A DNA stretch of 32,000 nucleotides from Opitutales bacterium (GTDB lineage: Bacteria > Verrucomicrobiota > Verrucomicrobiia > Opitutales > Coraliomargaritaceae), in the NCBI GenBank assembly GCA_049606355.1, contig JBMYVL010000006.1, forward strand, positions 1 through 32,000, given 5' to 3'. The translations under genes and the position numbers were made by a program. Below the pieces are notes generated by a model, which ran no database searches, had not been told where the DNA came from, and saw only the letters and a list, made by a program, of their open reading frames with translations. The first letter of the stretch is position 1; the number at the start of each line of letters is the position of its first letter. This document shows, in pieces, positions 7,704-32,000 of this stretch.

Positions 7704-7710
7704 TCATCCG

Positions 7711-7949: not shown

Positions 7950-8066
7950 GGTTGGTTCCTCTACTTGAGAGAACCCCGTGTCCACTTTTCTCAGGACATA
8001 TCAGGACACATAACACATCAGATTAACTAGTTGCTTTAAGCGTTTTGGGCTATCTATGTTCTGGTT

Positions 8067-8762: not shown

Positions 8763-8820
8763 TAGCGCTTAAGTCTGGATTTTCTTTCAAGTACGTGATG
8801 GATTTAGCGCATCGAGAAAA

Positions 8821-9804: not shown

Positions 9805-9851
9805 ATTTTTTTAAGTGTTCAATTTGGCACTTGATCTCTCTGGTAGGCTAA

Positions 9852-11475: not shown

Positions 11476-11509
11476 GGGTTTTGGAAATGATAAAGTATGG
11501 ATGTTGGCA

Positions 11510-12679: not shown

Positions 12680-13751
12680 ACAAGGCTTGGTATTGCTGTG
12701 CCATTTGTTCGACACTGAAATCCTTCGAGAATTCGTAAGCTTTTTCGATGATGGTTGCGCGGGTAGTAGCGTCTTCCTTATACCTGTGGAGATGGCTCGC
12801 GAGTGCGGGTGCATCGCCTACCGGGGACGAAAGGCCGGTCTCCCCGTGTCTTACGAGTTCCGGAATGCCGCCCGCACGAGTTGCAACGACAGGAACTTTG
12901 GCTGCAAAGGCATCAATCACACTGGTACCCAGTCCCTCCGTTTTTGAACTGATAAAGAAAATGTCCAGAGACGGGAGCACCGCTTCAACGTTCTCCAGAA
13001 AGCCAGTAAAGATGATAACTTCGTCAAGTTGACTCTGCTTGACGTAGTCTTTGATTTCGGCCTCGCGCTCCCCTTGGCCAATGATGAAAAAACGGACATC
13101 CTGGTCATACTCACGGATATACTGAGCCGCTGTATCCACAAAGGTGTGATAGTCTTTGTGATCAACCAGCGCACTGGTGTTGCCGATCAGCGTGATATGA
13201 TCGGCGAGCCCGTACTTTTCGCGAAGATGTTGGCTGCCGAGGTGGGGCGCAAACTTCTTGGGGTTGATCGCGCTGTAGATGGTGAGGCACTTCTCCGGCT
13301 GTCCAGTGCCGTTCGATACGATTTCGCGGATTGCGTCGGAAACGCAGGCAATTTTTCGAATCCCAGGATAGGTGTATTTCCATCTCGCAAAGCAGTTGTC
13401 CTTTAACTCGAAATCTACCCGTCGAGTGAGCAGAGACGGCGTTCGGTTTCCCATTAGATAGGAAAGGAAACTCGTGCCATGCCCGTGTGAGCTGTGCGCG
13501 TGGATAAGATCAATCGATTGATCCTGGCAAAGTTTTTTCAGCGCCCATCCAGACTTAAAATCCATGGAGCTCCGCATGGGTAGGGGGTAGTGCCTCCAGT
13601 CCCTCCGCTCACAATATGATTCAAACTCTGCCCCAGGCTTACACGCGACGATGGGCTCGATGCCCAGCGCCTCCAGACCCTCCACCAGATAAGCAATCTG
13701 TTGCTCGCCACCTCGCCAACTGGTCTCAGAGCTAAGATGCAGAATCTTCAT
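12654..13751 (-). CDS. Glycosyltransferase family 4 (GT-B)
   Basis: 365 aa. MKILHLSSETSWRGGEQQ is at the N-terminus, and SSKTEGLGTSVIDAFAAKVPVVATRAGGIPELV is the E-x7-E motif. Confidence 0.85.
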   Translation of the reverse strand: MKILHLSSETSWRGGEQQIAYLVEGLEALGIEPIVACKPGAEFESYCERRDWRHYPLPMRSSMDFKSGWALKKLCQDQSIDLIHAHSSHGHGTSFLSYLMGNRTPSLLTRRVDFELKDNCFARWKYTYPGIRKIACVSDAIREIVSNGTGQPEKCLTIYSAINPKKFAPHLGSQHLREKYGLADHITLIGNTSALVDHKDYHTFVDTAAQYIREYDQDVRFFIIGQGEREAEIKDYVKQSQLDEVIIFTGFLENVEAVLPSLDIFFISSKTEGLGTSVIDAFAAKVPVVATRAGGIPELVRHGETGLSSPVGDAPALASHLHRYKEDATTRATIIEKAYEFSKDFSVEQMAQQYQALYESIIAES

Positions 13752-14511
13752 TTTTGGATCTCAGGTCGATGTATTTGGCGTATTTCAGAAATTTAGAGTG
13801 TGCGGAAACGAGAGCGATTGTGAACCCGTAGAACCCGTCCAGGAAGCCCAGCTTCAAGAAATAGTGTTTAAGAAATACAAATGGCGGGTTGAAGATTAGC
13901 TTCAAAGCCGCGCCTTTCACTGACCCTGACTCTAACAGCCCCTGAGCGGCAATGCCTGAGAATTTATTGCTCTGAGCTACGTGGGCGTCCAAATCTGGGA
14001 TCGTGTAGTGAAGAATGTCGCCATTCAGCTTTTTTGCTTCCACCCCTGCTTTCAGAGTTACTGAGTCATGTGGATTATTTCCACCCCAGCGTCCTACCTG
14101 CCTGTTCCACAATCGGACTTTACGATCCGGATACCAGCCACTGTGCCGTATCCAACGTCCGCAGTAATTATTCAGCCTCGGCATGGAGTATGCCCCATAG
14201 CTATCAATTGTATCCTCTTCGATGCTCTTGATTTCTTGGATGAGCTCGTCGCTTAAGCACTCGTCCCCGTCGAGAGAGAGGATCCAATCGTATTTCGCCT
14301 GCTCTGCGCCAAACTGCTTTTGCTCTATGTAGCCTTCGAATTCGTGTTCGACGAAACGGACTTTCTCGTAGGATGTGCAAATAGCTTTCGTCTGGTCTGT
14401 CGAGAAGCTGTCGACTACGAAAACCTCGTCCGCGACTTCGCATAGCGAGTCCAAGCACTTTTTAATATGCGTTTCTTCGTTGAAGGTAATAACGGTAGCG
14501 CTGATTTTCAT
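13732..14511 (-). CDS. Glycosyltransferase family 2, WaaE/KdtX-like LPS core transferase
   Basis: 259 aa. MKISATVITFNEETHIKKCLDSL, VVDSFSTDQT and LSLDGDE (the DxD) support GT2. The C-terminal FLDGFYGFTIALVSAHSKFLKYAK tail is typical of the short KdtX/WaaE-type GT2s. Confidence 0.8.
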   Translation of the reverse strand: MKISATVITFNEETHIKKCLDSLCEVADEVFVVDSFSTDQTKAICTSYEKVRFVEHEFEGYIEQKQFGAEQAKYDWILSLDGDECLSDELIQEIKSIEEDTIDSYGAYSMPRLNNYCGRWIRHSGWYPDRKVRLWNRQVGRWGGNNPHDSVTLKAGVEAKKLNGDILHYTIPDLDAHVAQSNKFSGIAAQGLLESGSVKGAALKLIFNPPFVFLKHYFLKLGFLDGFYGFTIALVSAHSKFLKYAKYIDLRSKNEDSAS

Positions 14512-14607
14512 GATTCAAAGGTGCTCGTGGTATTTCTAAAATTAATCTCTAATGTGGTCACTGAGAACTATTTGGGTAGTCAATGCAATGTGCTCGCTGG
14601 AAGAATT

Positions 14608-15480
14608 TTAGAGTTTCCAGTATTTGTGTAGCCAGAATACGTCAAGAATGTGGGCGAGAAATTCCTTTTCGTATTCCGCGGTAATGGCAGTCAGGATTTC
14701 TTCGGTGTCGTCGCTATCGACAGGCACTCGGGTAAATTCGATCTTCCATTTGGCGGGCTCGTCGGAGTGGCACGAAATCATATAGAGCTTTGCCCCCGTG
14801 CGTCGTTGTAAGAGTGCGGGTAGCTTGGAGCGAGCGGAATCGCGCCCGAAAAAGGGTCTGGCATATTTGCTCTTTTTCCCTGCACGTTGGTCGGCGAGCA
14901 TAATTAAGTTCCCCCCTTCTTTTATAAATCGCCCTAATAAGAAGACAGAGGTCCTTTTGGCGAACATTTTGCAGCCGTATTTTTCCCGCTCCTTAAGTAC
15001 GTATTGGTTTGCGAATTCGTTATCGAGAGGACGATAGATCGCTCCGAATGAGGCTCCATGAGGAAATTTTATGGCGAGAATATTTGATAATAGTTCCCAG
15101 TTGCCCATGTGGGCAGTACACAAAATATGTCCGTTCCCGACTGCAATGTCCTCCAAGAGCTCATCGGGAATAACCGTGTCGACTTGTTCCATTACTCGCT
15201 CCAGTGGCATGCCATAGATCTTAATGGAGCAGGTGAGGTTTGCGAAAGACCGGCGAAAGATGCCCATGATTACACTTCTACTGACAAGGACTTCGGGGTA
15301 TCTGGCCGATACGACTTCGAGGTTCTCGCGAACTACCCTTCGTTTGCTCGCAAGAATCCAATAAAATACGCAACCCAGAAGCTCTCCGATTTTCCAGCAC
15401 GCCGATATGGGCAAGAATTTGAACAGGCCCATGGTGAGTTGGAACAAGATGATAAGGAGGATGGAGTTAAAGCGCTTCAT
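14608..15480 (-). CDS. LpxL/HtrB-family lipid A (Kdo2-lipid IVA) late acyltransferase
   Basis: 290 aa. It has an N-terminal hydrophobic anchor, the CTAHMGNWELL motif (the HxxxxE/D acyltransferase motif of the LpxL family), and ADQRAGKK. Confidence 0.75.
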   Translation of the reverse strand: MKRFNSILLIILFQLTMGLFKFLPISACWKIGELLGCVFYWILASKRRVVRENLEVVSARYPEVLVSRSVIMGIFRRSFANLTCSIKIYGMPLERVMEQVDTVIPDELLEDIAVGNGHILCTAHMGNWELLSNILAIKFPHGASFGAIYRPLDNEFANQYVLKEREKYGCKMFAKRTSVFLLGRFIKEGGNLIMLADQRAGKKSKYARPFFGRDSARSKLPALLQRRTGAKLYMISCHSDEPAKWKIEFTRVPVDSDDTEEILTAITAEYEKEFLAHILDVFWLHKYWKL

Positions 15481-15542: not shown

Positions 15543-15932
15543 TCAGCTTATGGTTTGTAGGGGGTATTCTTTCAGTTTCGAGTCGACTGTGGCAAGGGTC
15601 CAGCCGTTTACGATTGATGTGGCGGCGAGTAGTCTGTCAAAGGGGTCGCGGTGGATCGCCGGAAGCTTGCCGAGCATAAAGATCGCTTCATCTTGAAGGG
15701 GTTGATAGGCGAGGCCTGCTTTCTCGACAACCTCTGGAATACAATCTTTCGGTGCGGCGGGCAGGGAGAGTTTTCCCAAATCGTATTTCACCTGGATCTC
15801 CCAGATGGTGATTTGGCTGAGGTGCCAGCGGATGTCTTTTGCTCTTAAATGCCTGTTCAGGTTTTTTGAGAGTTTTTCAGGCTCGTTCTGCATCCAGAGG
15901 AATACCTGCGTATCCAGGAGGTAATTTTTCAT
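15543..15932 (-). CDS. vapC: Type II toxin, PIN-domain VapC family
   Basis: 129 aa. MKNYLLDTQVFLW supplies the first acidic residue. IWEIQVK, HRDPFDRLL and TVDSKL supply the remaining PIN acidic positions. It overlaps the upstream antitoxin gene by 4 nt. Confidence 0.85.
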   Translation of the reverse strand: MKNYLLDTQVFLWMQNEPEKLSKNLNRHLRAKDIRWHLSQITIWEIQVKYDLGKLSLPAAPKDCIPEVVEKAGLAYQPLQDEAIFMLGKLPAIHRDPFDRLLAATSIVNGWTLATVDSKLKEYPLQTIS

Positions 15933-16171
15933 TCTCCGTAATAGTCCTGCTCAAATTCAGGTAATGGGGCATCAAAGTCTTCCGCGATGGAGCATTGATT
16001 CTTAAGTAGTCCGATTTTGGGACATACCCCCAAATGGGTAGAGTCATTCGCCGGGCCCAACTGGGCTACCGGGCGGTTTCGGTCTGCAATGATGAACACA
16101 TCGCCTTTTGAGGCTTGTCTAGCGTATTTACCGAGATGTGCTTTGGCTTCACTTAGTTTCAAAGTAGTCAT
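15929..16171 (-). CDS. Type II antitoxin, Phd/YefM family
   Basis: 80 aa. MTTLKLSEAKAHLGKYARQASKGDVFIIADRNRPVAQL is the typical Phd/YefM N-terminal fold sequence. It is translationally coupled to the PIN gene. Confidence 0.8.
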   Translation of the reverse strand: MTTLKLSEAKAHLGKYARQASKGDVFIIADRNRPVAQLGPANDSTHLGVCPKIGLLKNQCSIAEDFDAPLPEFEQDYYGE

Positions 16172-17803: not shown

Positions 17804-18034
17804 ATGGACGTTTTTCTTGAAGCACTGCGCTCGGGCAGCATTCCGGCTTGGGCAGGTTTACTGGTGGCAGCAATTGTCGTCATCAAGCTACTGTTCAAAA
17901 TGAGCAAGTGGTTGGTACTCTTTGGTATCTTGGTCGCACTCGGCTATGGCTTTGTGGCTTTTTTTCCGGAGCTCGCTGAGCCCGTGCTGGATTGGCTGCA
18001 GTCGAATACACCCGAGACCGCGCCGATCGAATAG
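17804..18034 (+). CDS. Small hypothetical membrane protein (two predicted TM helices)
   Basis: 76 aa. It has two hydrophobic stretches (AWAGLLVAAIVVIKLLF and WLVLFGILVALGYGFVAFF), fits cleanly between serS and proS on the same strand, and has no recognisable family. Confidence 0.45.
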   Translation: MDVFLEALRSGSIPAWAGLLVAAIVVIKLLFKMSKWLVLFGILVALGYGFVAFFPELAEPVLDWLQSNTPETAPIE

Positions 18035-19614: not shown

Positions 19615-19827
19615 GCACTCGACCACCGAGCGGCGCCCCTGCAGTGTGATGGGTTTCTCCTATCTATTCGGGAGGGCGCGAGCTCGGGTCAGAGCGGTAT
19701 AAAAAATAAGTAAATTTCTGAGCCGCGTGTCAGGGATTTGCTGATCTGCTTGACCTTATATTCCCTAGGCGAATGCTGCGGCGCTGAGTGCTTGTACTCA
19801 ACCACTCATACGATAGAAGGGTTTCTC

Positions 19828-20397
19828 ATGTACGGAATGGTCAACAAAGCAATTGAGGAGATGGTGACGCGGCACCATGGCGAGTCGACTTGGGCGCAAA
19901 TCAAAGCGAAAGCCGGGGTGGATGTGGAAGTCTTTATGAGTAACGAAGGCTACTCGGATGACATTACCTACAATCTAGTGGGTGCCGCCAGTGAGGTGCT
20001 GGGCGTGGATGCGGAAACCATCCTGATCGGCTTTGGCGAGCACTGGGTGCTGCATACGGCTCAAGAAGCCTATGGTTCGATGATGCAAGCGGCGGGACGT
20101 ACCTTGCCGGAGTTTTTAACGAACTTGCCCAATTTTCACATGCATGTGGCGATGGTCTTTCCGAACTTGCAGCCGCCGCGTTTTGAATGTGCCGACATTA
20201 CCGACCGATCCCTGCGCTTGCATTATTACTCGCATCGCCCGGGTTTGGCGCCCTTCGTCGTCGGCCTGATGCAAGGCTTGGGCAAGATGTATGAGACGCC
20301 AGCCACGGTGCAGCAGGTGGTGTTTAAAGATCAGGGTGCCGACCATGATGAGTTCGACGTGACTTGGTCCCCGCTGGAGTCAGGTGATGAATGCTGA
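19828..20397 (+). CDS. hnoX: H-NOX (haem nitric oxide/oxygen-binding, HNOB) sensor protein
   Basis: 189 aa from the ATG at 19828. MYGMVNKAIEEMV is the canonical H-NOX start. LPNFHMHVAMVFP carries the proximal-His position (compare sGC beta1 ALHDHL). YYSHRPG is the Y-x-S-x-R haem-propionate motif. The upstream 30 codons of the track ORF are Cys-rich and look non-coding. Confidence 0.9.
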   Translation: MYGMVNKAIEEMVTRHHGESTWAQIKAKAGVDVEVFMSNEGYSDDITYNLVGAASEVLGVDAETILIGFGEHWVLHTAQEAYGSMMQAAGRTLPEFLTNLPNFHMHVAMVFPNLQPPRFECADITDRSLRLHYYSHRPGLAPFVVGLMQGLGKMYETPATVQQVVFKDQGADHDEFDVTWSPLESGDEC

Positions 20398-22060
20398 CGG
20401 TGAGGCAACGGTCGCACGATACGGGGTGCCTGCCGAGCAGTTAGCGAGCGTATTTCCTTTTCATTTTGCGTTGGGGCGCGAGCTTGAGCTCGTACAAATC
20501 GGCCCCACGCTGCAGCGTATCTGCCCCGATGTACAGTTGGGAGCTGATTTTACTCAGCTGTTTGTGTCGATCCGTACCGAGGGTGACATGAGCTGGGATT
20601 GGATTCTGCAACACCGCTCGCATTTTTTCTTATTTGAGCATCTCGCCACTCAGCTGCAGTTACGCGGGGAGTTTGTGCAACTACCGGAAACGGAAGTGGT
20701 CCTTTTTCTGGGCTCGCCGTGGTTTACCGATACCGAGCAGTTTGTTGCGTTTAATTTGGGGTTTAAGGATTTCGCCATTCACGATCCGGTGATTGATATG
20801 CTGCACATCATTCAGGCGAACAAGCTCGCCCTCTCCGATGCGCATCGTTTGACAGAAAAGTTGACCGAGCGGGGCCTCGAATTGACGCGCGCGCGGGATG
20901 CCGCTGAAAAAGCGAATCAAAGTAAAAGTGATTTGTTGGCGATGGTGAGTCATGAGATTCGTACGCCGATGAATGCGGTACTCGGCTTTACGGATCTACT
21001 GCTGAAGACCACCGAGCTGAGTGCCACCCAGAAGGAGTATGCGTTAACAGCTGCAAGCAGCGGGCAAATGTTACTGGCGGTGATCAATGATATCCTCGAT
21101 TTTTCCAAGATTGAATCCGGTGCCGATTTGAAGATCGAAGCTTCAGCAATGGCGCTCGCACCGCTGCTGGAGCGAGTCCAGCGTCTCCTGCAACCGCGCA
21201 CTGAAAACTGTACCTTACAGCTGGAAATCGACGCTGACTGCCCGCAGCAGATCGTTGCCGATGAAGGTCGATTGGAGCAAATCCTGGTGAATCTCACCAG
21301 CAATGCGATTAAGTTTACCGATGAAGGGACGATCGTCTTGCGGGTACACTGCCTCGAAAGCCACGCCGATCGGGTGCGCCTGCGTTTTGAAATTGAGGAC
21401 AGTGGAATCGGCATCGCTGCGGAGGATCTGGAGCAAATCTTCCTCCCTTACAATCAGGTGGCGGGCGATTCAACGAATCCGCGACGGGGCACGGGCTTGG
21501 GCTTGGCGATTACCAAGCAAATTGTGAACTTAATGGGGGGTGCTATTGGCGCGAGCAGTCAGCTCGAGAAGGGGTCGCTCTTCTGGTTTGAGTTGGAGTT
21601 TCGCGTACCAACGGAGCATGCCGAGCTCAAACCTGTCGTATCGCAAACGGTGTCGCCCGCCGCTCCAGGGCTGCGGATTTTAGTGGCCGAGGATAATCCA
21701 GTGAACCAAAGGCTCTTGGAAATTTTGCTCAAGCAACTCGGTCTGTCGGCCCGTTACGTGAGCAACGGTTCGGAGGCGGTCGCCGCGACTGCCCGCGAAG
21801 CGTTTGACCTAATCTTTATGGATTGTCAGATGCCGGTGATGGACGGCTTTGCCGCGACTGCGGCCATACGCGAGCGCGAGGCCTCGTGTGCTGCGGCCGA
21901 TACGCCGCGCAGCCATATCGTCGCGTTGACCGCGAATGCGATCAAGGGCTCTCATGAGCAGTGCCTGACTGCGGGCATGGATGATTTCATCAGCAAGCCG
22001 TTTGGTCTCGAACAACTCCGGGCGGCCCTGGAGAAAAGGCTAGCCGTCGAGTCTCAATAG
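20387..22060 (+). CDS. Soluble hybrid sensor histidine kinase: H-NOXA (HNOBA, sGC-like PAS) domain, coiled coil, HisKA, HATPase_c and receiver
   Basis: The start overlaps the H-NOX stop by 11 nt. The N-terminus (FPFHFALGRELELVQIGPTLQRICPDV...LRGEFVQLPETEVVLFLGSPW...DFAIHDPVIDML) parallels, from memory, sGC beta1 ([27 protein letters not shown]...[20 protein letters not shown]...DIPLHDATRDLV). The H-box is SHEIRTPMNAV, the N-box is LVNLTSNAIKFT, and the G-boxes are DSGIGI and GTGLGLAI. The receiver domain is ILVAEDNPVNQ...DLIFMDCQMPVMDG...ALTANA. No TM segments are present. Confidence 0.88.
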   Translation: MNADGEATVARYGVPAEQLASVFPFHFALGRELELVQIGPTLQRICPDVQLGADFTQLFVSIRTEGDMSWDWILQHRSHFFLFEHLATQLQLRGEFVQLPETEVVLFLGSPWFTDTEQFVAFNLGFKDFAIHDPVIDMLHIIQANKLALSDAHRLTEKLTERGLELTRARDAAEKANQSKSDLLAMVSHEIRTPMNAVLGFTDLLLKTTELSATQKEYALTAASSGQMLLAVINDILDFSKIESGADLKIEASAMALAPLLERVQRLLQPRTENCTLQLEIDADCPQQIVADEGRLEQILVNLTSNAIKFTDEGTIVLRVHCLESHADRVRLRFEIEDSGIGIAAEDLEQIFLPYNQVAGDSTNPRRGTGLGLAITKQIVNLMGGAIGASSQLEKGSLFWFELEFRVPTEHAELKPVVSQTVSPAAPGLRILVAEDNPVNQRLLEILLKQLGLSARYVSNGSEAVAATAREAFDLIFMDCQMPVMDGFAATAAIREREASCAAADTPRSHIVALTANAIKGSHEQCLTAGMDDFISKPFGLEQLRAALEKRLAVESQ

Positions 22061-22111
22061 GAGAACTCCAGGCTGGGGCGGCCCTCGGGCGATGAACGGT
22101 ACGTTGTGAGT

Positions 22112-22150
22112 TGCGAAAGTTGCGAAGACAGGTTTGCGTTGCCTTTCGCA
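22112..22150 (+). promoter_or_regulatory. TTGCG-motif cluster and 8-bp inverted repeat in the kinase-NOS intergenic region
   Basis: TGCGAAAG at 22112-22119 and CTTTCGCA at 22143-22150 are separated by 23 nt. TTGCGAAAG and TTGCGAAG form a tandem copy (22111-22127), and a further TTGCG sits at 22134-22138. TATTTTT follows. This could be an operator for the NOS gene or a weak terminator hairpin for the H-NOX/kinase operon. Confidence 0.3.
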
Positions 22151-22186
22151 TATTTTTAACAACTCAAGCCCGATGGTTAATTGCAC

Positions 22187-23299
22187 ATGAAACAGGACAG
22201 CGAGCCGAGCCGCCGCCACCGCGAGGCGGTCGAATTTATGGACTTGTGTGCCCATGAGTTACCCGCTGCTTCGGCAGATTGGCAGGCACGGCGTGCCGAG
22301 GTTGAGGCGACCCTCGCAGCGGAGGGCGTCTATGCGCTCGACTTTGCTGAGCTCGAACATGGTGGACGAGTGGCGTGGCGCAATAATGCGCGCTGTATCG
22401 GCCGGCTCTTTTGGTCTTCGCTGAAAGTTCGAGACCGCCGTGAGTTGGATGATCCGGACTTGGTGGCGGCCGACCTGCGTGAGCATGTACGCTTAGCGAC
22501 CCATGCGGGTAAGATTCAACCGCTGCTGACTGTTTATGCGCCTGCCGATGCGGCCGGGCCGCGTTTGCGCATTTGGAATCACCAGCTGTTCGGTTATGCC
22601 GGCTATGGCCTGCAGGACGATGGGAGTTATTTGGGTGACCCGAAGAATGAGCGCTTCACGGCTAAAGCGCTCGAACTTGGCTGGCAGCCGGCGCGCACCC
22701 AATTCGATTTGTTGCCGTGGATCCTGCAGAAACGTGGGGAAGCGCCGCGTTTGTTTGAGCCGCCGACGGCGGACTGCTTGGAAGTCCCCTTACGTCATCC
22801 GAAATTAGAGTGGTTTGCCGCACTTGGCCTGCGCTGGTATGCCGTACCGATATTATCGGATATGAATTTGCGGATTGGCGGCATGGACTTCCCGGCAGCG
22901 CCGTTTAACGGATGGTATATGGGAACCGAGATCGGCTCGCGTGACCTGGGGGATGCCGGGCGCTACAATGTTTTGCCAACACTGGCGGAGCACATGGGCT
23001 TGTTGAGGCCGAAAAAAGACCGCTTGTGGAAGGATCGGGCCTTGGTGGAACTCAATGAGGCGGTGCTGCACTCCTTTGCCGCGGATGGAGTGCGGATTGT
23101 CGATCACCACCGCGCGTCCTCCGAATTTATGCGCTTTGTGTCGATGGAACAGCAGCAGGGGCGCCTGGTGTCCGGAAATTGGAGTTGGTTGGTTCCGCCG
23201 ATGTCGGGTTCGGCGACGGAAGTATTCCATCGCCCATGGAAAGATCGCAAGTACGTACCGGACTATCAGCTGCAAGCTCCGGCATGGGAGGCGTTTTAA
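22187..23299 (+). CDS. nos: Bacterial nitric oxide synthase, oxygenase domain only (no reductase domain)
   Basis: 370 aa from the ATG at 22187 (a TTG lies at 22181). WRNNARCIGRLFW carries the haem-thiolate Cys. KIQPLLTVYAP, IWNHQLFGYAGY and FDLLPWIL are conserved blocks. PFNGWYMGTEIGSRDL carries the substrate-binding Glu. LWKDRALVELNEAVLHSF, VDHH and WSWLVPPMSGSATEVFHR complete the match. The protein is near-colinear with the B. subtilis NOS sequence as I remember it. Confidence 0.93.
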   Translation: MKQDSEPSRRHREAVEFMDLCAHELPAASADWQARRAEVEATLAAEGVYALDFAELEHGGRVAWRNNARCIGRLFWSSLKVRDRRELDDPDLVAADLREHVRLATHAGKIQPLLTVYAPADAAGPRLRIWNHQLFGYAGYGLQDDGSYLGDPKNERFTAKALELGWQPARTQFDLLPWILQKRGEAPRLFEPPTADCLEVPLRHPKLEWFAALGLRWYAVPILSDMNLRIGGMDFPAAPFNGWYMGTEIGSRDLGDAGRYNVLPTLAEHMGLLRPKKDRLWKDRALVELNEAVLHSFAADGVRIVDHHRASSEFMRFVSMEQQQGRLVSGNWSWLVPPMSGSATEVFHRPWKDRKYVPDYQLQAPAWEAF

Positions 23300-23391
23300 G
23301 AGCGAGCAAGGATTTTAGGCGCTGCTACCACATCTTCAGTAAGCTCCTGTACCTGCGGAGCGATCCATTTGCATCAACTTCAGTATTATTT

Positions 23392-23883
23392 ATGCGTAAT
23401 CTAAGCCTACTCCTTATGTTTTTCTTTTCGATGCAGGCCATCAGTGGCCAAGAACTTGCCGTCGGCGCACCGGCCCCACAGCTGATCGTCACGGACCAAG
23501 ACGGTCAGAGCTTTGACTTGGGCGAGGCCCTGACATCCGGGACCGCGGTGGTATTTTTCTATCCGATGGCCAACACTCCGGGTTGTACCAAGCAAGCCTG
23601 TAGCCTGAGTGAGGGCTACATGGAGCTGCGTCAGCGCGGTGTGCAAGTGATCGGTGTCTCCGGGGATAGTGCTGCCGCGCAGCGCAAGTTTCAAGAGAAG
23701 TACTCCCTGCCGTATCCGCTGATTGCGGACACCGATTTGCGTGTAAATAAGGCTTTCGGAAAGAAGCGCTTTGCGCGGCAGGCGTACATCTTCAAAGACG
23801 GTCACTTGGTGTGGCGTGATTTAAAGGCAGCGACTAGTCGCCAGTTTGAAGAAGTGGTGGCCGCATTGGATGCCTTGCAATAG
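23392..23883 (+). CDS. bcp: Bcp-type peroxiredoxin (AhpC/TSA family) with N-terminal signal peptide
   Basis: 163 aa from the ATG at 23392. MRNLSLLLMFFFSMQAISGQE looks like a signal peptide. VVFFYPMANTPGCTKQACS is the PxxxTxxC peroxidatic Cys motif with a second Cys five residues later. VIGVSGDS and YPLIADTD also fit. The upstream 71 codons of the track ORF overlap the NOS 3' end and are rejected. Confidence 0.85.
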   Translation: MRNLSLLLMFFFSMQAISGQELAVGAPAPQLIVTDQDGQSFDLGEALTSGTAVVFFYPMANTPGCTKQACSLSEGYMELRQRGVQVIGVSGDSAAAQRKFQEKYSLPYPLIADTDLRVNKAFGKKRFARQAYIFKDGHLVWRDLKAATSRQFEEVVAALDALQ

Positions 23884-25413: not shown

Positions 25414-25532
25414 GGGTCGGCTAAATCGGCTGTTTGACTGGCGTGGCTTGTCATCACTTACCGGTTGCCAGCCCACGGCTCGCCGCTTTCACTGCACCTT
25501 TTAATTTTCAACGACTCTCTATTAAACTGACT

Positions 25533-26711
25533 ATGATCGTAAAACCCCGCATTCGAGGATTTGTTTGCATCACGGCGCACCCAACAGGCTGTGCGGCCAA
25601 GGTGCAGCAGGAAATTGCCGTCGCTCAAGCCGCCAAGCAAGCAGGAGGGCCGAAGAAGGTTCTCGTGATCGGCGCTTCGACTGGCTACGGCTTGTCATCA
25701 CGCATTGCTGCTGCCTTTGGTCACGATGCCGCGACCTTGGGGGTGTTTTTTGAGCGGCCATCGCTCAAGGGGAAACCGGCCAGCGCAGGTTGGTATAATT
25801 CGGTTGCTTTTGAGCAAGCCGCCCACGACGCCGGCCTCTATGCAAAAAGTATTAACGGCGATGCCTTTTCCAATGAAGTCAAGCAACAGACGATCGACAC
25901 CATCAAAGCCGATCTCGGCCAGGTGGATCTGGTGATCTATAGCTTGGCCTCACCGCGTCGTACCGATCCGGCCAATGGTGAGACCTACAAGTCCTGTTTG
26001 AAGCCGATTGGCCAGACTTACAGTAATCGTACGCTGGATACCGACAAAGCACAGGTGAGCGAAGTGACCATAGAACCGGCAACCGATCAGGAAGCTGCGG
26101 ACACGGTTAAGGTGATGGGCGGCGAGGACTGGGAGCTTTGGATGCAGGCGCTCGCGCAAGCGGGCGTGTTGGCGCCGGCTGCGAAGACGGTGGCGTATTC
26201 CTACATTGGGCCGGAAATCACATGGCCGGTGTATACGAACGGAACTATCGGAGCTGCGAAAAAAGATGTCGAGCGGGCGGCTGAGGCGATCCGTGCGGCG
26301 TATGGCTGTGAGGCCTACGTTTCCGTCAATAAGGCAGTGGTGACGCAGGCGAGCTCCGCGATTCCTGTGGTGCCCTTGTATATTTCGATTCTATTTAAAA
26401 TCATGAAGGCCAAGGGCACCCACGAAGACTGTATTGAGCAGGCGGTGCGCTTACTGAATGAGCGGCTCTACGGCGGTGACCTGCAGCTCGATGCGACCGG
26501 CCGCATTCGTATTGATGACTGGGAAATGGCACCCGAGATTCAGGCTGCGGTAGAAGAAATTTGGCCAAAGATTACCAGCGAATCGCTCACTGAGCTTTCC
26601 GATTTTGAGGGCTATCAGAAAAACTTCCTCAACCTCTTTGGCTTTGAAATCGACGGGGTTGATTACGAGGCGGAGGTCGAAGTGGATCTACCGATGCCCA
26701 GTATCGGCTAA
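25533..26711 (+). CDS. fabV: Enoyl-[acyl-carrier-protein] reductase FabV (trans-2-enoyl-CoA reductase family)
   Basis: 392 aa from the ATG at 25533. [54 protein letters not shown] and [13 protein letters not shown] are hallmark FabV/TER blocks. Confidence 0.92.
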
Positions 26712-29700
26712 AGTTCAACGCACTCGGCCGGTGCAGTAAAGACGAGGAGTAGGCTGATGGTGCCCTGCGGGATGCCTGTGAGCGCGGCAAGTGCCTTGCG
26801 GTAGGCTTCCATTTGTGGGCGATGTTTTTCGGTCGCGTCCTGGAGTGTATTCGACGGGTGGATACGATCGGTTTTGAAGTCGAGGATGACTGCACGGTCA
26901 AAGTCTCCGGATGGGCTGCGGTATAGTTGCACGCGATCAAAGACTCCATTGATCAATTGCTGCTCATCAATGAGGCTAAACGCTTTCTCGCGCCACACGA
27001 CTGCGTCGGCATCACTGCAAGTGAAGTGCGCACGAATTGCCGGATTTTGGAAGCATTTTTCAATACAGTTGCGCACGGCTGCGGATTCGATCTTGGCGCG
27101 TAGAGTGTCGAGTGTGGATGGCTGCCACCATTCAATTTGCTCAAAAGCATCGTGCACCGCGGTGCCAAATTCGCTGGCAGTTTCACTGAGGTCAAAAAAG
27201 GTGCGAGCCGGTATGCGGAGCTGCTTGCTCGAAGAGGGGCGCATGAGTTGCAGGCGCGGGTGTACGGCTGGATACGCTTCCGCAACGGGCGCAGTCCCGT
27301 GCGCTTCACTTGGGCTGGCTTCCGGCTGAAACGAGTCCGCCCAGTTCGGGTCCCCAGTCTCCCAGAGTAGACCGTTCGCGGTAGCGGTACTGCCGAGGCG
27401 TTCCCTTAGATAGTGAACGGTCGAGCCCTGGCTGACGCGTTCCAGGTCACTGATCATGTACAGGCCACGTTTGGCCCGAGTCATGCCGACATAAAGGGCG
27501 CACAGTCTGCCGAAACCAGATTGGCTTTTCGTTTGGTCGTGGAGTTGTGAGAGCTGAGGGTCCGCCTGCATCAACTCTTTTTTGATGGGCTCCATGAGCC
27601 AATCGGTTTCCCCCTGCGGGTTGGTTTTGGGGCTGATGCGCTGCTCGTTTCGCACGCTCGTGTCTTCGTTGATGAGGAGGACGAGGTCATATTCCAGACC
27701 TTTGGATTTATGGATCGTCTCGACAATAATCGCATCGCCGGGTGCGCACTCACCACTCTTTGAATCCTTCAAGTAGTGGATCAGGGCATCGATGCTGCGT
27801 TGCTCTTCTCGATCAAAGCGACGCGCTGCTTCGATGAGCGTTTGTAGTCGCTGTCGATGGCGCTCGTCCTCTTGGGGGAGGTGTTGGCTGATGGCGTCGC
27901 ATGCCCAACGCACCGCTGATTCGTGGCTGTCTTGCAACAGGCGTTGCCGCAGTGCATCGGTCTGGCTGGATAAGGCGACTCCCTCTGTAGACGCGTCAAT
28001 GCATCTGAGGAAGCCTCTGGCGTGCGCATCGCCTGGGTGTGCGGCGCAACGCAGCATTGCAAGCAGAGCAGCTCCAGCGGCGTTGTCCGTCGCCGGTTGA
28101 ATCGCGGACCCGGTGTGTACCGGAAAATCACTGTGTTCGCGCAAGTAGGCAGCGATTTCATTGGCATGCGCATTCTTACGTACCAAGATACCCACACTCA
28201 TACCGCGTTGGATCGGCTGAATCGTTTCGAGTAGCTGCAAGATTTGTTCGTTGCGCGTCGGGCTATCGTTTTTCTGCACCTGCATCCAACAGGCGTAACC
28301 ACTCAGGTCTTGAGTCTTTGGGGAGGGGACGTGTGGCTCCCAAGAACGTTGCCAGCGTTCTGCCGCATCTGGAGAGAAGGTCTCCGCGATAAGAGCCGGA
28401 TCCTCGAAGACTTCGTTCACTGCATCCAGTATTGCCGGAGCGGAACGCCACGAAGTACTTAAGCTCTGCGGCTCGATGTTGGAATATCGCTGACGGATTT
28501 CGTGAAATAGGCGGTCATCGCTATTGCGCCATAAGTAAAGGCATTGCTTGGTATCGCCGACATAAAATAACGAGCGTTGTCCCGAGTCATCTTGTACGAC
28601 CTCATCGATCAAGGTTTCAACCACCTGCCACTGCGACCGGCTAGTATCCTGAAACTCGTCGAACAACCAGTGGTCGTAGTGCCCATCGAGGCGGTAGTCC
28701 ATGAGGGCGCGACTATCGGCATCCATCTGCGCTAGCGGAGAACCGGCCGCTGCGGGAGCGAGTAGGTGGGTGAGATCCGCAAAGGCAAGGCGGCCGGGTC
28801 GACGCACGATGCGGTCGTAGCTTTGGTGGTATGCCTGTAGTACTCGATACACGCCTTGGGTGTTTTGCAGCGCGCGGTGTAAGTGATGCCAGAAAATCGC
28901 CTGTACAATGGCAGCCAGTGCCTGTGCCGAACGCCCGGTGAGAGGAACGAGATTATTTTTGCCGCGACCACTGCGGAGCGTGACTTGTCCGGCAAATAGC
29001 TCGTCGGCCTGGGCGATTGCGCGATCGATCAAAGTCGTGGTTTTCTCGTTCTTCCCGTATGCGCGCACTTTGTCTGCGAGCGCGTGAAAATCATTTTCCT
29101 GCGAACGGCTGAGGCCTTCCGGGATGCACGTCAACCAAGCTTCGGCAAGTTGCTCCCAGTCGATACGCTTTGTGTGTGCCCATTGGCACTGCTTCGGCCA
29201 GATGCGCTCCATTTGCCCCCACTTCTCCGGGTCTGGCGCTTCTAAGAAGTGGGAATAGAGGTCTTTAATGAATCCACTCACCGTGCCTTCGACACGGCGT
29301 GTATCCTGTCCATAGGTAGCTTGCCGAAAGGCATGCCAGAACTCATTCAGCTCACTGCTCGAATCATCGAATTGATAAATGATGTGGTCGCGCGCTTCCT
29401 TGCGCATCCGTAGTTCAGCACCTTCATCCATCAGCTTAAGGTTGCCGGGGAGTCCGAGTTCGAGTGAGAACGCCGACACCATGCGAAAGAAAAAGCTGTC
29501 GAGGGTTTGCAGATTGAGCCGATGCATCTGCTGTATCACACAGCTCAATAAAGTGTGGTAGCGTGCACGGTCCGCATCGATCTGAAGTTGCGAAGAGAGC
29601 TCAGTCGCACCTGCTTCGCTTGCCGCTGCGGTGGCTAGTTTTTGAATGATGTGGTGGAAGAATTCACCTGCAGCGGAGCGCGTAAAGGTTAGGGCAATAA

Positions 29701-29812
29701 TCCGTTCCGGCTGCTCAGTGAGGTGCAAGAGGTAGATGAAGCGATTGGTCAGGTTGTAGGTTTTCCCTGAGCCGGCCGAGGCCGCAATGGCGATGTTTTG
29801 CAGGGACTTCAT
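26708..29812 (-). CDS. addA: UvrD/Rep-type helicase with C-terminal PD-(D/E)XK nuclease, AddA-like
   Basis: 1034 aa. [12 protein letters not shown] is the Walker A motif. DEFQDTS is helicase motif [14 protein letters not shown] is motif III, and [12 protein letters not shown] and [12 protein letters not shown] are motifs V and VI. The C-terminal GVFDRV...AVILDFKTD is the nuclease motif. It overlaps the upstream AddB-like gene by 4 nt. Confidence 0.8.
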
Positions 29813-32000
29813 GCAAAGGTGTAATTTTCAAACGCGCCCGATTGCACCGTTTTCTCGATGCCGTCGGGGAAGTATGCGGCAAAGTCATCAAACGCTTCCG
29901 GGATGTCGTTACTTGGTGGCCAAAACTGCCCTGCTTGAATGCGGCGAATCACTGCTGCGGCGCAGGCATAGGCCGAATCCAAATGCGCTTCCGTTAAGTC
30001 GTGCCACCGGGCGAACTCACTTTTGTCGAGTGTTTTGGCTAAATTAAAATAGGCAACGCGGATGTTTGCTTTGCCCGTAGATCGCATGGCTAGCGCATAC
30101 AGGGGCAGCTGCAGGTTTATCCAGCGGTAGGTTTTTCCGTCCAATTCGAAAAGGGCCTCTTCCGGCACATGTGTCGGGAGGCCTTTCTTGCCTAGTTGTA
30201 CCAAGTGCGCTTGCTGTGGATTTTTGGGAGTATCGCTGGTCTTATAGTCAATCAACTCAATGAGCTCATCACGCTGATCTGTACGATCAATGCGTCCCTT
30301 TATTTGGACGCCTTCAATAGAGAAATTATCAAAGGCAACTTCGGTATCCAGAATGTGGGTACAGCCGTTTGCTTCAATATCTTCGATCTGTCGTTCGCAA
30401 AATGCGCTGAGCCGTGCGAGTAAGGATTCTTTTTGCAGTCTTAATGCGAAAGACAGGTGTTTGCCGTAGCGGTGTTGAATTTTTTGTTCGGCGATGGCGT
30501 GCAGCTTTTCGATGAGGCCGTGGGCCGTAGTCTGCTGGGTGAGGTGTCTACCCTTGAGCTCCTCGACAACATCATGAAATAGATTGCCAAACGTAGCGGC
30601 ACTGAGCTCGCGTGTTTCGACATCGATCGGGCGCATACGCAGCACTTCTTTTAGAAAAAAGCGAAAGGGGCAGGTTAAGTAACTGGTCAGTGCGCTCACT
30701 GATATAGAGTCGGGGCGCGACAACCGAGGGGGTGCTCTCAGTTTCCAAGGGAGGGTATGCGAACCATGGCTGCGGATGTTCGCTGCTGTACCGAATAATT
30801 TCTGCGTGCGCGGCACGAGGGTATCTGCGCTCCCCAGGAACAGTAAGCGTGAGGGTTTCAGTGGCGAACCATCCGCGGTCGTTTGTGGGACCAAGAGTTC
30901 GATGCGCCCACTTTGGCGGCGCCGTTGGCACAAGGCCTCGAGTAAATAAGCGTCGCGTGCGAAACGCTGAGCGTTGGTACGCAGTCCCAGGGCGTCGCGT
31001 AAGCTTTCCGGGAGGAAGGCATCGCCAACGATTGATTCAGGTACAATGGTTTCGTTGATACCGGCGAGAATCAGGTGTGGGGCATCATTCCAAAGCAGCT
31101 CGAGCCAGCCCAGCAAGTCATGCGCGTTTTCAGGACGTTCGGGATAGACCACCGCTTGTCGCAGTGTCTGCTGGAAGGCTGATCGGATGAATTGCGCAGG
31201 CAATTTTGGAAATAGGGTCTCCGCTTGGTGCGCTTGGTCGAGCAGCTTGCGAATCGCTCCGGCGCGCGCTTGCCAATTCGCAGTTTGTGGATTGCCCAAT
31301 TCGATTTCGCGTTCGCTATAGATGGTTTGTAGGGCGGTTGCCAGTGCCGGTGCAAAGGGTTCCTGGGGGGTAGCCAGAGAGCGCTCCAGCTGCTTGAGCT
31401 GTTTGAGCGCAGCGCTCAATGCGGGATCTTTACTGAAGCGAAGGAGTGCGGGCAAATCCGCTGCCAAATGGCGCTCAAAAACTGTATCCACTTGGCTTAG
31501 GAGTTTTTCCTGTGTGTCCGTTACACCCAACCAATGCACGATATCGGGATGCTGCAGTAAGGTTCGAATCGTCGACGTGTGGCTGCCTTCGGCTAATTCG
31601 CAGAGGAGTTCGGCGAGGCGTCCGACCCCTCCCAATTGCAGCATTTCGCCCTCTGGATTATAAAACGGAATGTGCTGTGCGCGCAGTGTATCTCCGACGG
31701 TTGGGTTTAAGGCAGGATCGGCGAGGCCGATGAGCACGGATTCAGGTGCGGCCTTTTGGGTTGCCTGTGCGATGTGTGCCGCGGTTTGTTGGGCATCCGG
31801 GAAGGATTGTAAGTGGCAGTTCCAAGCTTCCAGATCCATTGCCCGCGCGGTCCATGGATCGGTGTGGGGGCGCCCCCAGTCATCAAAGAGTTCGGCATCC
31901 GGCCCATAAATCCAAACGTCGACCGGGGTGGTGTGCGCCGCTTGTTGCAGTGCCTTCAGCGCGAGGGGTTGAGGATCGGGTGTCGCGACGAGGATGATAC
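29809..32000 (-). CDS. AddB-like PD-(D/E)XK nuclease subunit (5' end lies beyond the right edge)
   Basis: The track ORF starts at the Met at 31839. My reverse translation of 31840-32000 stays open in the same frame (...IILVATPDPQPLALKALQQAAHTTPVDVWIYGPDAELFDDWGRPHTDPWTARA-MDLEAW), so the gene very likely continues out of the window. The C-terminal GRIDRTDQ...LIELIDYKTS is a PD-(D/E)XK motif. Confidence 0.7.
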   Translation of the reverse strand, partial: IILVATPDPQPLALKALQQAAHTTPVDVWIYGPDAELFDDWGRPHTDPWTARAMDLEAWNCHLQSFPDAQQTAAHIAQATQKAAPESVLIGLADPALNPTVGDTLRAQHIPFYNPEGEMLQLGGVGRLAELLCELAEGSHTSTIRTLLQHPDIVHWLGVTDTQEKLLSQVDTVFERHLAADLPALLRFSKDPALSAALKQLKQLERSLATPQEPFAPALATALQTIYSEREIELGNPQTANWQARAGAIRKLLDQAHQAETLFPKLPAQFIRSAFQQTLRQAVVYPERPENAHDLLGWLELLWNDAPHLILAGINETIVPESIVGDAFLPESLRDALGLRTNAQRFARDAYLLEALCQRRRQSGRIELLVPQTTADGSPLKPSRLLFLGSADTLVPRTQKLFGTAANIRSHGSHTLPWKLRAPPRLSRPDSISVSALTSYLTCPFRFFLKEVLRMRPIDVETRELSAATFGNLFHDVVEELKGRHLTQQTTAHGLIEKLHAIAEQKIQHRYGKHLSFALRLQKESLLARLSAFCERQIEDIEANGCTHILDTEVAFDNFSIEGVQIKGRIDRTDQRDELIELIDYKTSDTPKNPQQAHLVQLGKKGLPTHVPEEALFELDGKTYRWINLQLPLYALAMRSTGKANIRVAYFNLAKTLDKSEFARWHDLTEAHLDSAYACAAAVIRRIQAGQFWPPSNDIPEAFDDFAAYFPDGIEKTVQSGAFENYTFA

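What the first reader, a model, noticed from the sequence alone, without database searches (positions are those of the whole stretch)
19828..23883. Self-contained NO circuit: H-NOX sensor, sGC-like H-NOXA hybrid kinase, NO synthase and exported peroxiredoxin in one 4-kb same-strand cluster
The sequence directly shows four consecutive plus-strand genes. (i) An H-NOX with the proximal-His region and Y-x-S-x-R motif. (ii) A soluble hybrid histidine kinase overlapping it by 11 nt, whose N-terminus is colinear with the H-NOXA/PAS and coiled-coil region of soluble guanylate cyclase. (iii) After a 126-nt gap, a stand-alone NOS oxygenase with the haem-thiolate WRNNARCIGR and the GWYMGTEIG arginine-binding Glu. 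(iv) After a 92-nt gap, a signal-peptide-bearing Bcp peroxiredoxin. From established knowledge, bacterial H-NOX genes normally sit next to kinases or c-di-GMP enzymes and are thought to report exogenous NO from a host or from denitrification. Bacterial NOS is found mainly in Gram-positives (Bacillus, Staphylococcus, Deinococcus, Streptomyces), where it serves stress protection or nitration chemistry and has no known dedicated receptor. To my recollection, the only studied bacterium with both an NOS and an H-NOX pathway is a marine Silicibacter/Ruegeria strain, and I do not recall the genes being adjacent there. My inference is that this locus encodes an autocrine or paracrine NO signalling system analogous to the metazoan NOS-sGC axis. 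Phosphorelay would replace cGMP as output, and the peroxiredoxin might limit peroxide or peroxynitrite damage in the periplasm. This is the strongest candidate in the window for a previously undescribed system.
Basis: partly seen in the sequence, partly recalled or inferred. Interest (0 to 1): 0.82.

Follow-up and report, generated by a model that had tools for sequence, protein, structure and literature searches.

The report
NO synthase beside an NO-sensor kinase
In one marine Verrucomicrobia species, a nitric-oxide-making enzyme gene sits directly next to a nitric-oxide sensor and its kinase. This is a rare, apparently unreported layout that may form a make-and-sense NO circuit, but no other species examined shares it, so the functional link is unproven.

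Summary
Four intact plus-strand genes lie at 19828-23883:
- an sGC/Nostoc-type H-NOX;
- a soluble HNOBA-HisKA-HATPase-REC hybrid kinase whose start overlaps the H-NOX stop;
- a stand-alone bacterial NOS oxygenase;
- a Bcp/PrxQ peroxiredoxin with a hydrophobic N-terminus.

The organism is an uncultured marine Puniceicoccaceae/Opitutales bacterium (Verrucomicrobiota). All sampled strains of this species (~98% ANI) keep the cluster, and all four genes are under purifying selection.

Conservation does not support a dedicated, self-contained circuit.
- Among 160 NOS loci from genomes and metagenomes, H-NOX or HNOBA lies near NOS only in this species.
- The sister species has ProRS-[alpha/beta hydrolase]-NOS-Bcp-UGDH-FabV, with no sensor or kinase in that slot.
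- Related H-NOX/HNOBA-kinase pairs sit in exopolysaccharide clusters or cyanobacterial loci, never beside NOS.
- No Hpt protein or output regulator was identified among the window's annotated genes.

My best reading is a lineage-specific juxtaposition of two known modules. It probably lets the cell sense its own NOS-derived NO, as was shown for unlinked genes in Silicibacter TrichCH4B. I rate it a new variant of a known kind, of moderate interest.

The parts
19615..19827 (+). 213-nt region between the proS stop and the H-NOX start; presumed promoter/leader of the H-NOX-kinase operon
   Evidence: No Rfam match and no consensus promoter. Within-species diversity pi=0.024 is similar to synonymous diversity, so constraint is weak. 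It cannot be aligned with the sister species.
19828..20397 (+). H-NOX haem NO sensor, 189 aa, sGC/Nostoc type
   Evidence: Pfam HNOB 5.7e-52. PDB Alr2278 1e-66 at 53% identity, and sGC beta1 6e-32. His104 and Y133xS135xR137 are present, and Phe sits at the position of Ns Met144, so there is no distal Tyr. There are 8 nucleotide haplotypes but one protein, pN/pS=0.
20387..22060 (+). Soluble hybrid histidine kinase: HNOBA/PAS (about 20432-20938), HisKA with His189 (about 20921-21121), HATPase_c (about 21260-21601), receiver with Asp479 (about 21677-22030); no Hpt domain
   Evidence: Pfam. The N-terminus is 40% identical to the Nostoc punctiforme kinase H-NOXA crystal structure 2P04 (3e-20) and also matches the sGC beta1/alpha1 PAS and coiled-coil region. 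The start overlaps the H-NOX stop and follows a GGAG. pN/pS is 0.12.
22061..22186 (+). 126-nt kinase-NOS spacer; transcriptional status unknown
   Evidence: No plus-strand terminator-like site or promoter match. The RNA fold is no better than shuffles, z=-1.1. pi=0.021, so it is not strongly constrained. The same 126-127-nt spacing occurs in all contigs of the species.
22187..23299 (+). Stand-alone NOS oxygenase (bacterial type, 370 aa)
   Evidence: Pfam NO_synthase 2e-136. B. subtilis NOS 1e-106, mammalian NOS oxygenase 4e-96. Cys70 thiolate and Glu248 are present. It belongs to a verrucomicrobial clade. pN/pS is 0.16.
23300..23391 (+). 92-nt NOS-Bcp spacer
   Evidence: No terminator or significant structure; pi=0.028.
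23392..23883 (+). Bcp/PrxQ-type peroxiredoxin with a hydrophobic N-terminal (probable signal) peptide
   Evidence: AhpC-TSA 4e-27 and Redoxin 5e-23. NCBIfam thiol peroxidase Bcp scores below its cut-off. C65-x4-C70 is present, and the hydrophobic N-terminus is conserved in 5 relatives. It follows NOS only in this genus: L002 and L087. pN/pS is 0.09.

Best explanation
This is a lineage-specific juxtaposition of two known modules in a marine Puniceicoccaceae species.

Module 1 is a translationally coupled operon of an sGC/Nostoc-type H-NOX and a soluble HNOBA hybrid histidine kinase.

Module 2 is a stand-alone bacterial NOS oxygenase followed by an exported Bcp-type peroxiredoxin. It sits in a housekeeping stretch (serS, proS ... 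ugd, fabV).

Proposed mechanism:
1. NOS makes NO from arginine, using general cellular reductases.
2. NO binds the ferrous haem of H-NOX, which is ligated by His104.
3. H-NOX acts in trans on the kinase's HNOBA/PAS dimer and signalling helix, much as the H-NOX domain acts within sGC. This changes autophosphorylation at His189 and transfer to Asp479.
4. The phosphoryl group then passes to an Hpt protein and response regulator encoded elsewhere.
5. The likely output is surface polysaccharide or biofilm control. In related Verrucomicrobia this sensor-kinase pair is embedded in exopolysaccharide clusters that also encode sigma-54 activators.

Shown here: gene identities, catalytic and ligand residues, operon-like coupling of H-NOX and kinase, purifying selection on all four genes, fixation of the arrangement in the species, and its rarity elsewhere.

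Inferred: that NOS-derived NO is the physiological ligand, the sign of kinase regulation, the output, and any role for Bcp.
For: - Domains and motifs are intact.
- The four genes are adjacent on one strand, with no terminator-like site in the spacers.
- The arrangement is identical in all contigs of the species, from many samples.
- pN/pS is 0-0.16 for the four genes, similar to housekeeping neighbours.
- GC3 of H-NOX and kinase (0.64-0.67) matches NOS, Bcp, ugd and fabV, so this is not a recent foreign insert.
- There is a precedent: Silicibacter TrichCH4B makes NO with NOS, and its NO-bound H-NOX controls a hybrid kinase, an Hpt and a diguanylate cyclase (PMC4436077).
- From established knowledge, H-NOX proteins bind NO at pM-nM, NO diffuses freely, and both proteins are cytoplasmic. 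Any NOS activity in the same cell should therefore reach this sensor.
- Related H-NOX/HNOBA kinases lie in EPS clusters that encode sigma-54 activators.
Against: - The linkage is not conserved. Of 159 other NOS loci, none has H-NOX or HNOBA within up to 10 kb.
- The sister species keeps proS-NOS-Bcp-ugd-fabV, but with an alpha/beta hydrolase in the slot.
- Seven H-NOX/HNOBA-kinase contexts examined lack NOS.
- Verrucomicrobial NOS neighbours are otherwise housekeeping and variable, for example FabH, PlsX and YdjM.
- The 126-nt spacer may carry NOS's own promoter, and intergenic regions are not constrained.
- No Hpt protein or response regulator was found among the window genes scanned.
- No HNOBA-type kinase has been shown biochemically to respond to H-NOX, to my knowledge.
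Confidence: 0.5

Rival explanations
1. The adjacency is coincidental. The H-NOX-kinase cassette landed in a variable slot between proS and nos. It reports exogenous NO, for example from phytoplankton or nitrogen-cycle microbes. NOS has a non-signalling role such as oxidative-stress protection or a nitrite/nitrate supply. Bcp is simply a neighbouring housekeeping antioxidant.
For: - The slot differs in the sister species, which has a hydrolase there.
- The linkage is absent from 159 other NOS loci and 7 H-NOX contexts.
- NOS relocates often within the clade.
- Spacers are unconstrained, and there is no shared regulatory signal.
- By my rough estimate, about 2 in 3000 placements would be adjacent by chance per genome. 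With hundreds of genomes possibly carrying both genes, one chance case is not improbable.
Against: - The arrangement is fixed and intact across the whole species, under purifying selection.
- It is same-strand and tightly packed, without terminator-like sites.
- Even if the placement was accidental, cytoplasmic NOS-derived NO should still reach a high-affinity H-NOX in the same cell (established knowledge).
- The Silicibacter precedent shows unlinked genes can form such a circuit.
Confidence: 0.33
2. This is feedback control. The H-NOX/kinase phosphorelay mainly regulates expression of the downstream nos-bcp genes, so NOS is an output of the sensor, with or without also being its input. NO production would be adjusted to ambient NO.
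For: The sensor operon lies immediately upstream of nos-bcp on the same strand. The 126-nt spacer could hold a regulated promoter. NOS and Bcp stay together in the genus with or without the sensor.
Against: No DNA-binding regulator is encoded among the window genes scanned. The spacer is not conserved within the species beyond neutral levels and has no recognisable operator or structure. The sister species keeps nos-bcp at this site without the sensor.
Confidence: 0.1
3. The H-NOX does not sense NO physiologically. It reports another signal, such as haem redox state, oxidants, CO or O2, so proximity to NOS is irrelevant.
For: Some bacterial H-NOX proteins respond to oxidation (PMC12329717, listed). 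Ligand selectivity was not measured here.
Against: The protein is 53% identical to Nostoc Alr2278 and clearly related to sGC beta1. It has Phe at the position of Ns Met144 and no distal Tyr. From established knowledge, this is the pattern of O2-excluding, NO-binding H-NOX proteins.
Confidence: 0.07

Closest known systems
Silicibacter sp. TrichCH4B NOS / H-NOX / SiliHK / Hpt / DGC pathway (Rao, Smith & Marletta 2015, PMC4436077)
   Same: One bacterium encodes both a NOS and an H-NOX adjacent to a soluble hybrid histidine kinase. The concept is endogenous NO signalling by phosphorelay, in a marine, phytoplankton-associated setting.
   Different: In Silicibacter the NOS is fused to a reductase (Sorangium type), the kinase is not described as HNOBA-type, and the paper does not describe nos as adjacent to hnoX. 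Here the NOS is a stand-alone oxygenase, the kinase carries the sGC-like HNOBA domain, the genes are contiguous, and the phylum is Verrucomicrobiota. Nothing has been tested experimentally here.
Nostoc H-NOX (Alr2278 / Npun) with the adjacent HNOBA signal-transduction histidine kinase (PDB 2O09, 2P04)
   Same: The H-NOX is 53% identical and the HNOBA domain 40% identical. It is the same two-gene module, a stand-alone H-NOX followed by an HNOBA-HisKA-HATPase-REC kinase.
   Different: Cyanobacterial kinases have two receiver domains and no NOS neighbour. Here there is one receiver and NOS lies 126 nt downstream.
Metazoan NOS-soluble guanylate cyclase axis
   Same: The haem-thiolate NOS oxygenase is homologous (4e-96 to nNOS/eNOS). 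H-NOX plus HNOBA/PAS plus signalling helix is co-linear with sGC beta1.
   Different: H-NOX is a separate polypeptide. The output is a His-Asp phosphorelay rather than cGMP. The NOS has no reductase or calmodulin module. Producer and sensor are in the same cell.
Verrucomicrobial H-NOX / HNOBA-PAS-kinase pairs inside exopolysaccharide gene clusters (uncharacterised; L082, L083, L178)
   Same: These are the closest relatives of the window's H-NOX (75-79% identity). The HNOBA region matches at phmmer 3e-59 to 4e-61 and the kinase core is about 50% identical. They share overlapping start/stop codons.
   Different: They carry extra PAS/GAF and often Hpt domains, and sit among glycosyltransferases, Wzy, Bac_transf and sigma-54 activators, with no NOS. 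The window's kinase is a minimal version relocated beside NOS.
Stand-alone bacterial NOS (B. subtilis, S. aureus, D. radiodurans)
   Same: It has the same single-domain oxygenase architecture and catalytic residues, and no dedicated reductase.
   Different: It belongs to a verrucomicrobial clade, about 49% identical to Bacillales NOS genes. No receptor is linked in the Gram-positive cases.

Membership tests
H-NOX (Pfam HNOB, PF07700), NO-selective sGC/Nostoc subclass | Full-length HNOB domain match | tested here: met
   5.7e-52 over model positions 1-162 of 163
H-NOX (Pfam HNOB, PF07700), NO-selective sGC/Nostoc subclass | Proximal haem-ligating His and the Y-x-S-x-R propionate-binding motif | tested here: met
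   His104 aligns with Ns His105; Y133-S135-R137 present
H-NOX (Pfam HNOB, PF07700), NO-selective sGC/Nostoc subclass | No distal-pocket H-bonding Tyr (O2 exclusion) | tested here: inconclusive
   Phe sits at the position of Ns Met144 and Trp at Ns Trp74. The alignment to Tt H-NOX Tyr140 was not displayed, and ligand binding was not measured.
H-NOX (Pfam HNOB, PF07700), NO-selective sGC/Nostoc subclass | Binds haem and NO | not testable with these tools
   Needs spectroscopy of purified protein
HNOBA-type hybrid histidine kinase (Nostoc STHK type) | HNOBA/PAS domain followed by a signalling helix and HisKA | tested here: met
   HNOBA 8e-22; 2P04 3e-20 and sGC beta1 4e-11 extending into the coiled coil
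HNOBA-type hybrid histidine kinase (Nostoc STHK type) | Encoded next to a stand-alone HNOB gene | tested here: met
   11-nt overlap with the H-NOX gene; the same pairing occurs in 7 related contexts
HNOBA-type hybrid histidine kinase (Nostoc STHK type) | Phospho-acceptor His, ATP-binding domain, receiver Asp | tested here: met
   His189 in SHEIRTP, HATPase_c 2e-25, Asp479 in FMDCQMP
HNOBA-type hybrid histidine kinase (Nostoc STHK type) | Hpt domain or protein completing the phosphorelay | tested here: not met
   The protein has no Hpt domain, and no Hpt or response-regulator gene was found among the window genes scanned against Pfam. It must be encoded elsewhere.
Bacterial NOS oxygenase (bNOS) | Complete NO_synthase oxygenase domain with Cys thiolate and substrate Glu | tested here: met
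   2e-136 over model positions 6-361 of 362; Cys70 and Glu248
Bacterial NOS oxygenase (bNOS) | No fused reductase and no N-terminal Zn/hook extension | tested here: met
   370 aa; aligns from residue 12 to residue 9 of B. subtilis NOS
Bacterial NOS oxygenase (bNOS) | Makes NO from arginine | not testable with these tools
   Needs an enzyme assay
Bcp/PrxQ peroxiredoxin | AhpC-TSA fold with peroxidatic and resolving Cys five residues apart | tested here: met
   AhpC-TSA 4e-27; TPGC65TKQAC70. The NCBIfam Bcp equivalog scores 85 bits against a cut-off of 140, so it is family level only.
   MRN + LSLLLMFFFSM + QAISG resembles a Sec signal, and the hydrophobic N-terminus is conserved in relatives. 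No signal-peptide predictor was available, and the start codon is ambiguous.
NOS-dependent H-NOX signalling system (Silicibacter type) | NOS and an H-NOX/hybrid-kinase pair in one genome | tested here: met
   Contiguous in the window
NOS-dependent H-NOX signalling system (Silicibacter type) | NOS-derived NO changes kinase activity and a downstream phenotype | not testable with these tools
   Needs genetics or biochemistry
Dedicated conserved gene cluster (operon-level system) | Linkage conserved across species or lineages | tested here: not met
   Only this species among 160 NOS loci; the sister species lacks the sensor at this site
Dedicated conserved gene cluster (operon-level system) | Co-transcription of the four genes | tested here: inconclusive
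   No terminator or promoter calls in the spacers, but the scans are uninformative for this phylum

The most novel reading that the evidence does not exclude
The cluster is a co-regulated autocrine/paracrine NO circuit. The cell makes NO with NOS and reads it with an sGC-like H-NOX/HNOBA kinase encoded in the same transcription unit, and Bcp buffers peroxynitrite or peroxide by-products. This would be the first physically linked bacterial counterpart of the NOS-sGC axis. It would also be a snapshot of how producer and receptor genes become coupled, possibly used in bloom-associated Verrucomicrobia to time polysaccharide or biofilm behaviour.
Probability: 0.25. Interest if true: 0.75.

Novelty: new variant of a known kind. 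Interest (0 to 1): 0.5.

Why it matters
For most H-NOX-bearing bacteria the source of the NO they sense is an open question, and bacterial NOS has no known dedicated receptor outside one Silicibacter strain. A genome that places a stand-alone NOS directly beside the most sGC-like type of bacterial NO sensor-kinase gives a compact three-gene set. It could be reconstituted in vitro or in E. coli to ask two things: whether bacteria use NO as a self-made signal, and how an H-NOX talks to an HNOBA/PAS-signalling-helix module, a mechanistic question shared with human sGC. It also adds two points. Verrucomicrobiota hold a sizeable, unstudied NOS clade. Their H-NOX kinases are habitually tied to exopolysaccharide clusters. 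The value is limited because the linkage occurs in a single uncultured species and has no comparative support.

Tried and rejected
1. Genome-level co-occurrence of NOS and H-NOX in other Verrucomicrobia. The listing of cluster members returned almost no accessions, so NOS and H-NOX proteins could not be assigned to common assemblies. The longest-contig lengths of NOS and H-NOX hits never coincide. This question is unresolved.
2. Promoter/terminator scan, RNA folding of the three spacers, and Rfam. Nothing exceeded shuffles.
3. Aligning the insertion boundaries with the sister species. Homology stops at the proS stop and resumes inside nos. There is no hydrolase remnant in the window and no H-NOX or kinase remnant in L002, so the polarity (insertion versus replacement) is undetermined.
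4. Compositional test for foreign origin. GC3 of H-NOX and kinase matches the neighbours, so horizontal acquisition from another phylum was rejected. The closest relatives are verrucomicrobial.
5. Conserved NOS partners in the verrucomicrobial clade, such as a reductase, sensor or regulator. Only housekeeping neighbours (FabH, PlsX, YdjM) recur.
6. Intergenic constraint within the species. pi is about equal to pS, so this was uninformative.
7. Iyer et al. 2003, the paper defining HNOBA, is not held in the library. The statement that bacterial HNOBA genes neighbour HNOB genes therefore rests on my own knowledge plus the contexts seen here.

Full report
**What is there**

The window region 19828-23883 carries four consecutive plus-strand ORFs exactly as described. 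Pfam assigns them as follows:
- HNOB, 5.7e-52.
- HNOBA + HisKA + HATPase_c + Response_reg, 8e-22 to 2e-25.
- NO_synthase, 2e-136, full length.
- AhpC-TSA/Redoxin, 4e-27.

The H-NOX is 53% identical to the crystallised Nostoc Alr2278 H-NOX (1e-66) and clearly related to sGC beta1 (6e-32). His104 aligns with the proximal His, Y133-x-S135-x-R137 is present, and the residue at Ns Met144 is Phe.

The kinase N-terminus is 40% identical to the H-NOXA domain of the Nostoc punctiforme signal-transduction kinase (PDB 2P04, 3e-20). It also aligns with the PAS and coiled-coil region of sGC alpha1/beta1. The kinase has His189, Asp479 and no transmembrane segment. Its ATG at 20387 follows a GGAG and overlaps the H-NOX stop by 11 nt.

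The NOS keeps the Cys70 thiolate and Glu248. It aligns end-to-end with B. subtilis NOS (1e-106) and with mammalian oxygenase domains (4e-96).

The peroxiredoxin has the Bcp/PrxQ C65-x4-C70 motif and a hydrophobic N-terminus conserved in relatives. Its export is plausible but untested, and its start is ambiguous (23392 or 23416).

**Whose genome, and is the arrangement real?**

The nearest genomes are Puniceicoccaceae/Opitutales MAGs from seawater. The identical H-NOX protein is named as coming from an Opitutales MAG. The window matches contig JBMYLE010000001.1 of GCA_049596055.1 at 99.3%.

More than 15 independent contigs from JGI, ENA, NCBI and Logan assemblies carry the same order: serS - small ORF - proS - hnoX - kinase - nos - bcp - ugd - fabV. 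They are 98-99% identical over 10 kb.

Across 11 haplotypes, pN/pS is 0 for H-NOX (8 nucleotide variants, one protein), 0.12 for the kinase, 0.16 for NOS and 0.09 for Bcp. Flanking housekeeping genes give 0.01-0.10. All four genes are therefore functional and fixed in this species.

**Is the linkage conserved?**

It is not. I fetched the 80 genome loci and 80 metagenome loci most similar to this NOS, with up to 10 kb of flank. I then searched all six-frame ORFs with the window's H-NOX, HNOBA region and Bcp, using tblastn at 1e-5 and phmmer at 1e-2. H-NOX or HNOBA next to NOS appears only in L001, which is the same species.

The closest other species is Puniceicoccaceae ALOHA_ZT_55 (L002), together with a TARA contig (L087). 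Its identities to the window are ProRS 86%, NOS 84%, Bcp 73% and UGDH 87%. It has proS - [281-aa exported alpha/beta hydrolase] - nos - bcp - ugd - fabV. The space between proS and nos is thus a variable slot.

Other close NOS genes (82-83%) sit beside an enolase-superfamily gene and an amine oxidase, or beside a deacetylase. Across 26 verrucomicrobial NOS loci, the only recurrent neighbours are FabH, PlsX and a YdjM-like membrane protein. Bcp follows NOS only within this genus.

**Where the sensor-kinase pair comes from**

The H-NOX has hundreds of 67-79% identical relatives, some labelled Verrucomicrobiota. In the contexts I read, each is followed by an overlapping HNOBA-PAS-(GAF)-kinase gene. 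These pairs lie inside exopolysaccharide clusters with glycosyltransferases, Wzy, Bac_transf, an acyltransferase and a sigma-54 activator, and have no NOS.

The kinases with the same minimal architecture as the window's are cyanobacterial (Nostoc-type, two loci) or again lie in an EPS cluster. None has NOS nearby.

GC3 of the window's H-NOX and kinase (0.64-0.67) equals that of nos, bcp, ugd and fabV. The pair is therefore a native verrucomicrobial module that was trimmed and relocated, not a foreign import. Whether it was inserted here or lost from the sister species cannot be decided.

**Transcription signals**

Nothing decisive was found.
- No terminator-like site on the plus strand and no sigma-70-like promoter in the 126-nt or 92-nt spacers, with counts equal to shuffles.
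- No significant RNA structure.
- No Rfam family.
- Spacer diversity within the species (pi 0.021-0.028) is about the same as synonymous diversity.

Only the H-NOX/kinase pair is demonstrably operon-like.

**Interpretation**

Two known modules have been brought side by side in one lineage. The mechanism I consider most likely (about 0.5) has three steps:
1. Cytoplasmic NOS makes NO using non-dedicated reductases, which is established for bacterial NOS.
2. The H-NOX in the same cytoplasm binds that NO.
3. Through the HNOBA/PAS dimer and signalling helix, H-NOX alters kinase autophosphorylation and a phosphorelay.

The Hpt and response regulator of that relay lie outside the window. The EPS context of related sensors points to surface polysaccharide or biofilm control as the output.

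The strongest argument for coupling is biophysical plus precedent. In Silicibacter TrichCH4B, unlinked nos and hnoX/HK genes form exactly such a pathway. The strongest argument against a dedicated system is the complete lack of comparative support.

The main rival (about 0.33) is chance placement with independent functions. A rough estimate is that a cassette lands next to a given gene in about 2 of 3000 positions per genome. One such case among the many genomes carrying both genes would not be remarkable.

Minor rivals are that NOS is a regulated output of the sensor, and that the H-NOX reads redox state or another gas.

**Novelty and score**

Every component belongs to a known family, and the concept has an experimental precedent. 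Three things are new:
- the physical linkage;
- the combination of a stand-alone NOS with the sGC-like HNOBA kinase type;
- the phylum.

I found no paper describing NOS/H-NOX adjacency or verrucomicrobial NOS in the searchable library. I rate it a new variant of a known kind, interest 0.5. The arrangement would still make an unusually compact test system for self-made NO signalling.

Noticed in passing
window 469-15480 (minus strand), low-GC stretch 5000-10000, rve fragment 6691-7230: This is a large LPS-core/glycosyltransferase cluster with two Kdo/WaaP-type kinases, six GT4/GT2/GT90 genes, an FkbM methyltransferase and a lipid A acyltransferase. It is interrupted by a truncated integrase-core (rve) ORF and a GC dip to 0.39-0.46. 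Strains of the same species carry different glycosyltransferase sets upstream of serS (L166, L167), so this looks like a strain-variable surface-glycan island.
   Followed up: partly
window 15543-15932 (-) and 15929-16171 (-): A PIN-domain toxin with an overlapping 80-aa PhdYeFM-like antitoxin lies between the glycan cluster and serS. In some strains (L166, L167) the gene in the toxin's position is shorter (81 or 107 aa) and has no PIN match.
   Followed up: partly
window 17804-18034 (+): A 76-aa ORF between serS and proS is called in every contig of the species, has no Pfam family, and lies in an unusually conserved intergenic stretch (pi 0.007 versus about 0.025 elsewhere).
   Followed up: no
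L002 2558-3403 and L087 about 330-1200: The sister species has an exported alpha/beta hydrolase (esterase / S9-like) in the exact slot that holds H-NOX and the kinase in the window.
   Followed up: yes
L082 5062-19756; L083 10001-20561; L178 1-12127: In other Verrucomicrobia, H-NOX plus HNOBA kinases are embedded in exopolysaccharide clusters with sigma-54 activators. L083 additionally has a FIST protein and two more hybrid kinases. This suggests an uncharacterised NO-to-EPS regulatory theme in the phylum.
   Followed up: partly
L003-L008, L088-L104 (NOS loci): A sizeable verrucomicrobial NOS oxygenase clade exists (Akkermansiaceae, Oceaniferula, Spartobacteria, Opitutaceae, Terrimicrobiaceae). 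It often sits right after plsX-fabH or next to a YdjM-like membrane protein. No study of it was found.
   Followed up: partly
window 26708-29812 (-) and 29809-31839 (-): An AddA/UvrD-like helicase-nuclease (1034 aa) and a PD-(D/E)XK nuclease partner (AddB-like) overlap by 4 nt and are conserved in all strains.
   Followed up: no
L166 10560-14058: On the 880-kb contig the kinase is split in two, and NOS is split and fused in frame to Bcp. Other strains are intact, so these are probably frameshift errors of a long-read assembly rather than biology.
   Followed up: no
window 25434-26711: The mechanical ORF for FabV starts at TTG 25434 (425 aa), but all gene calls in relatives give 392 aa, which puts the start at 25533.
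   Followed up: partly
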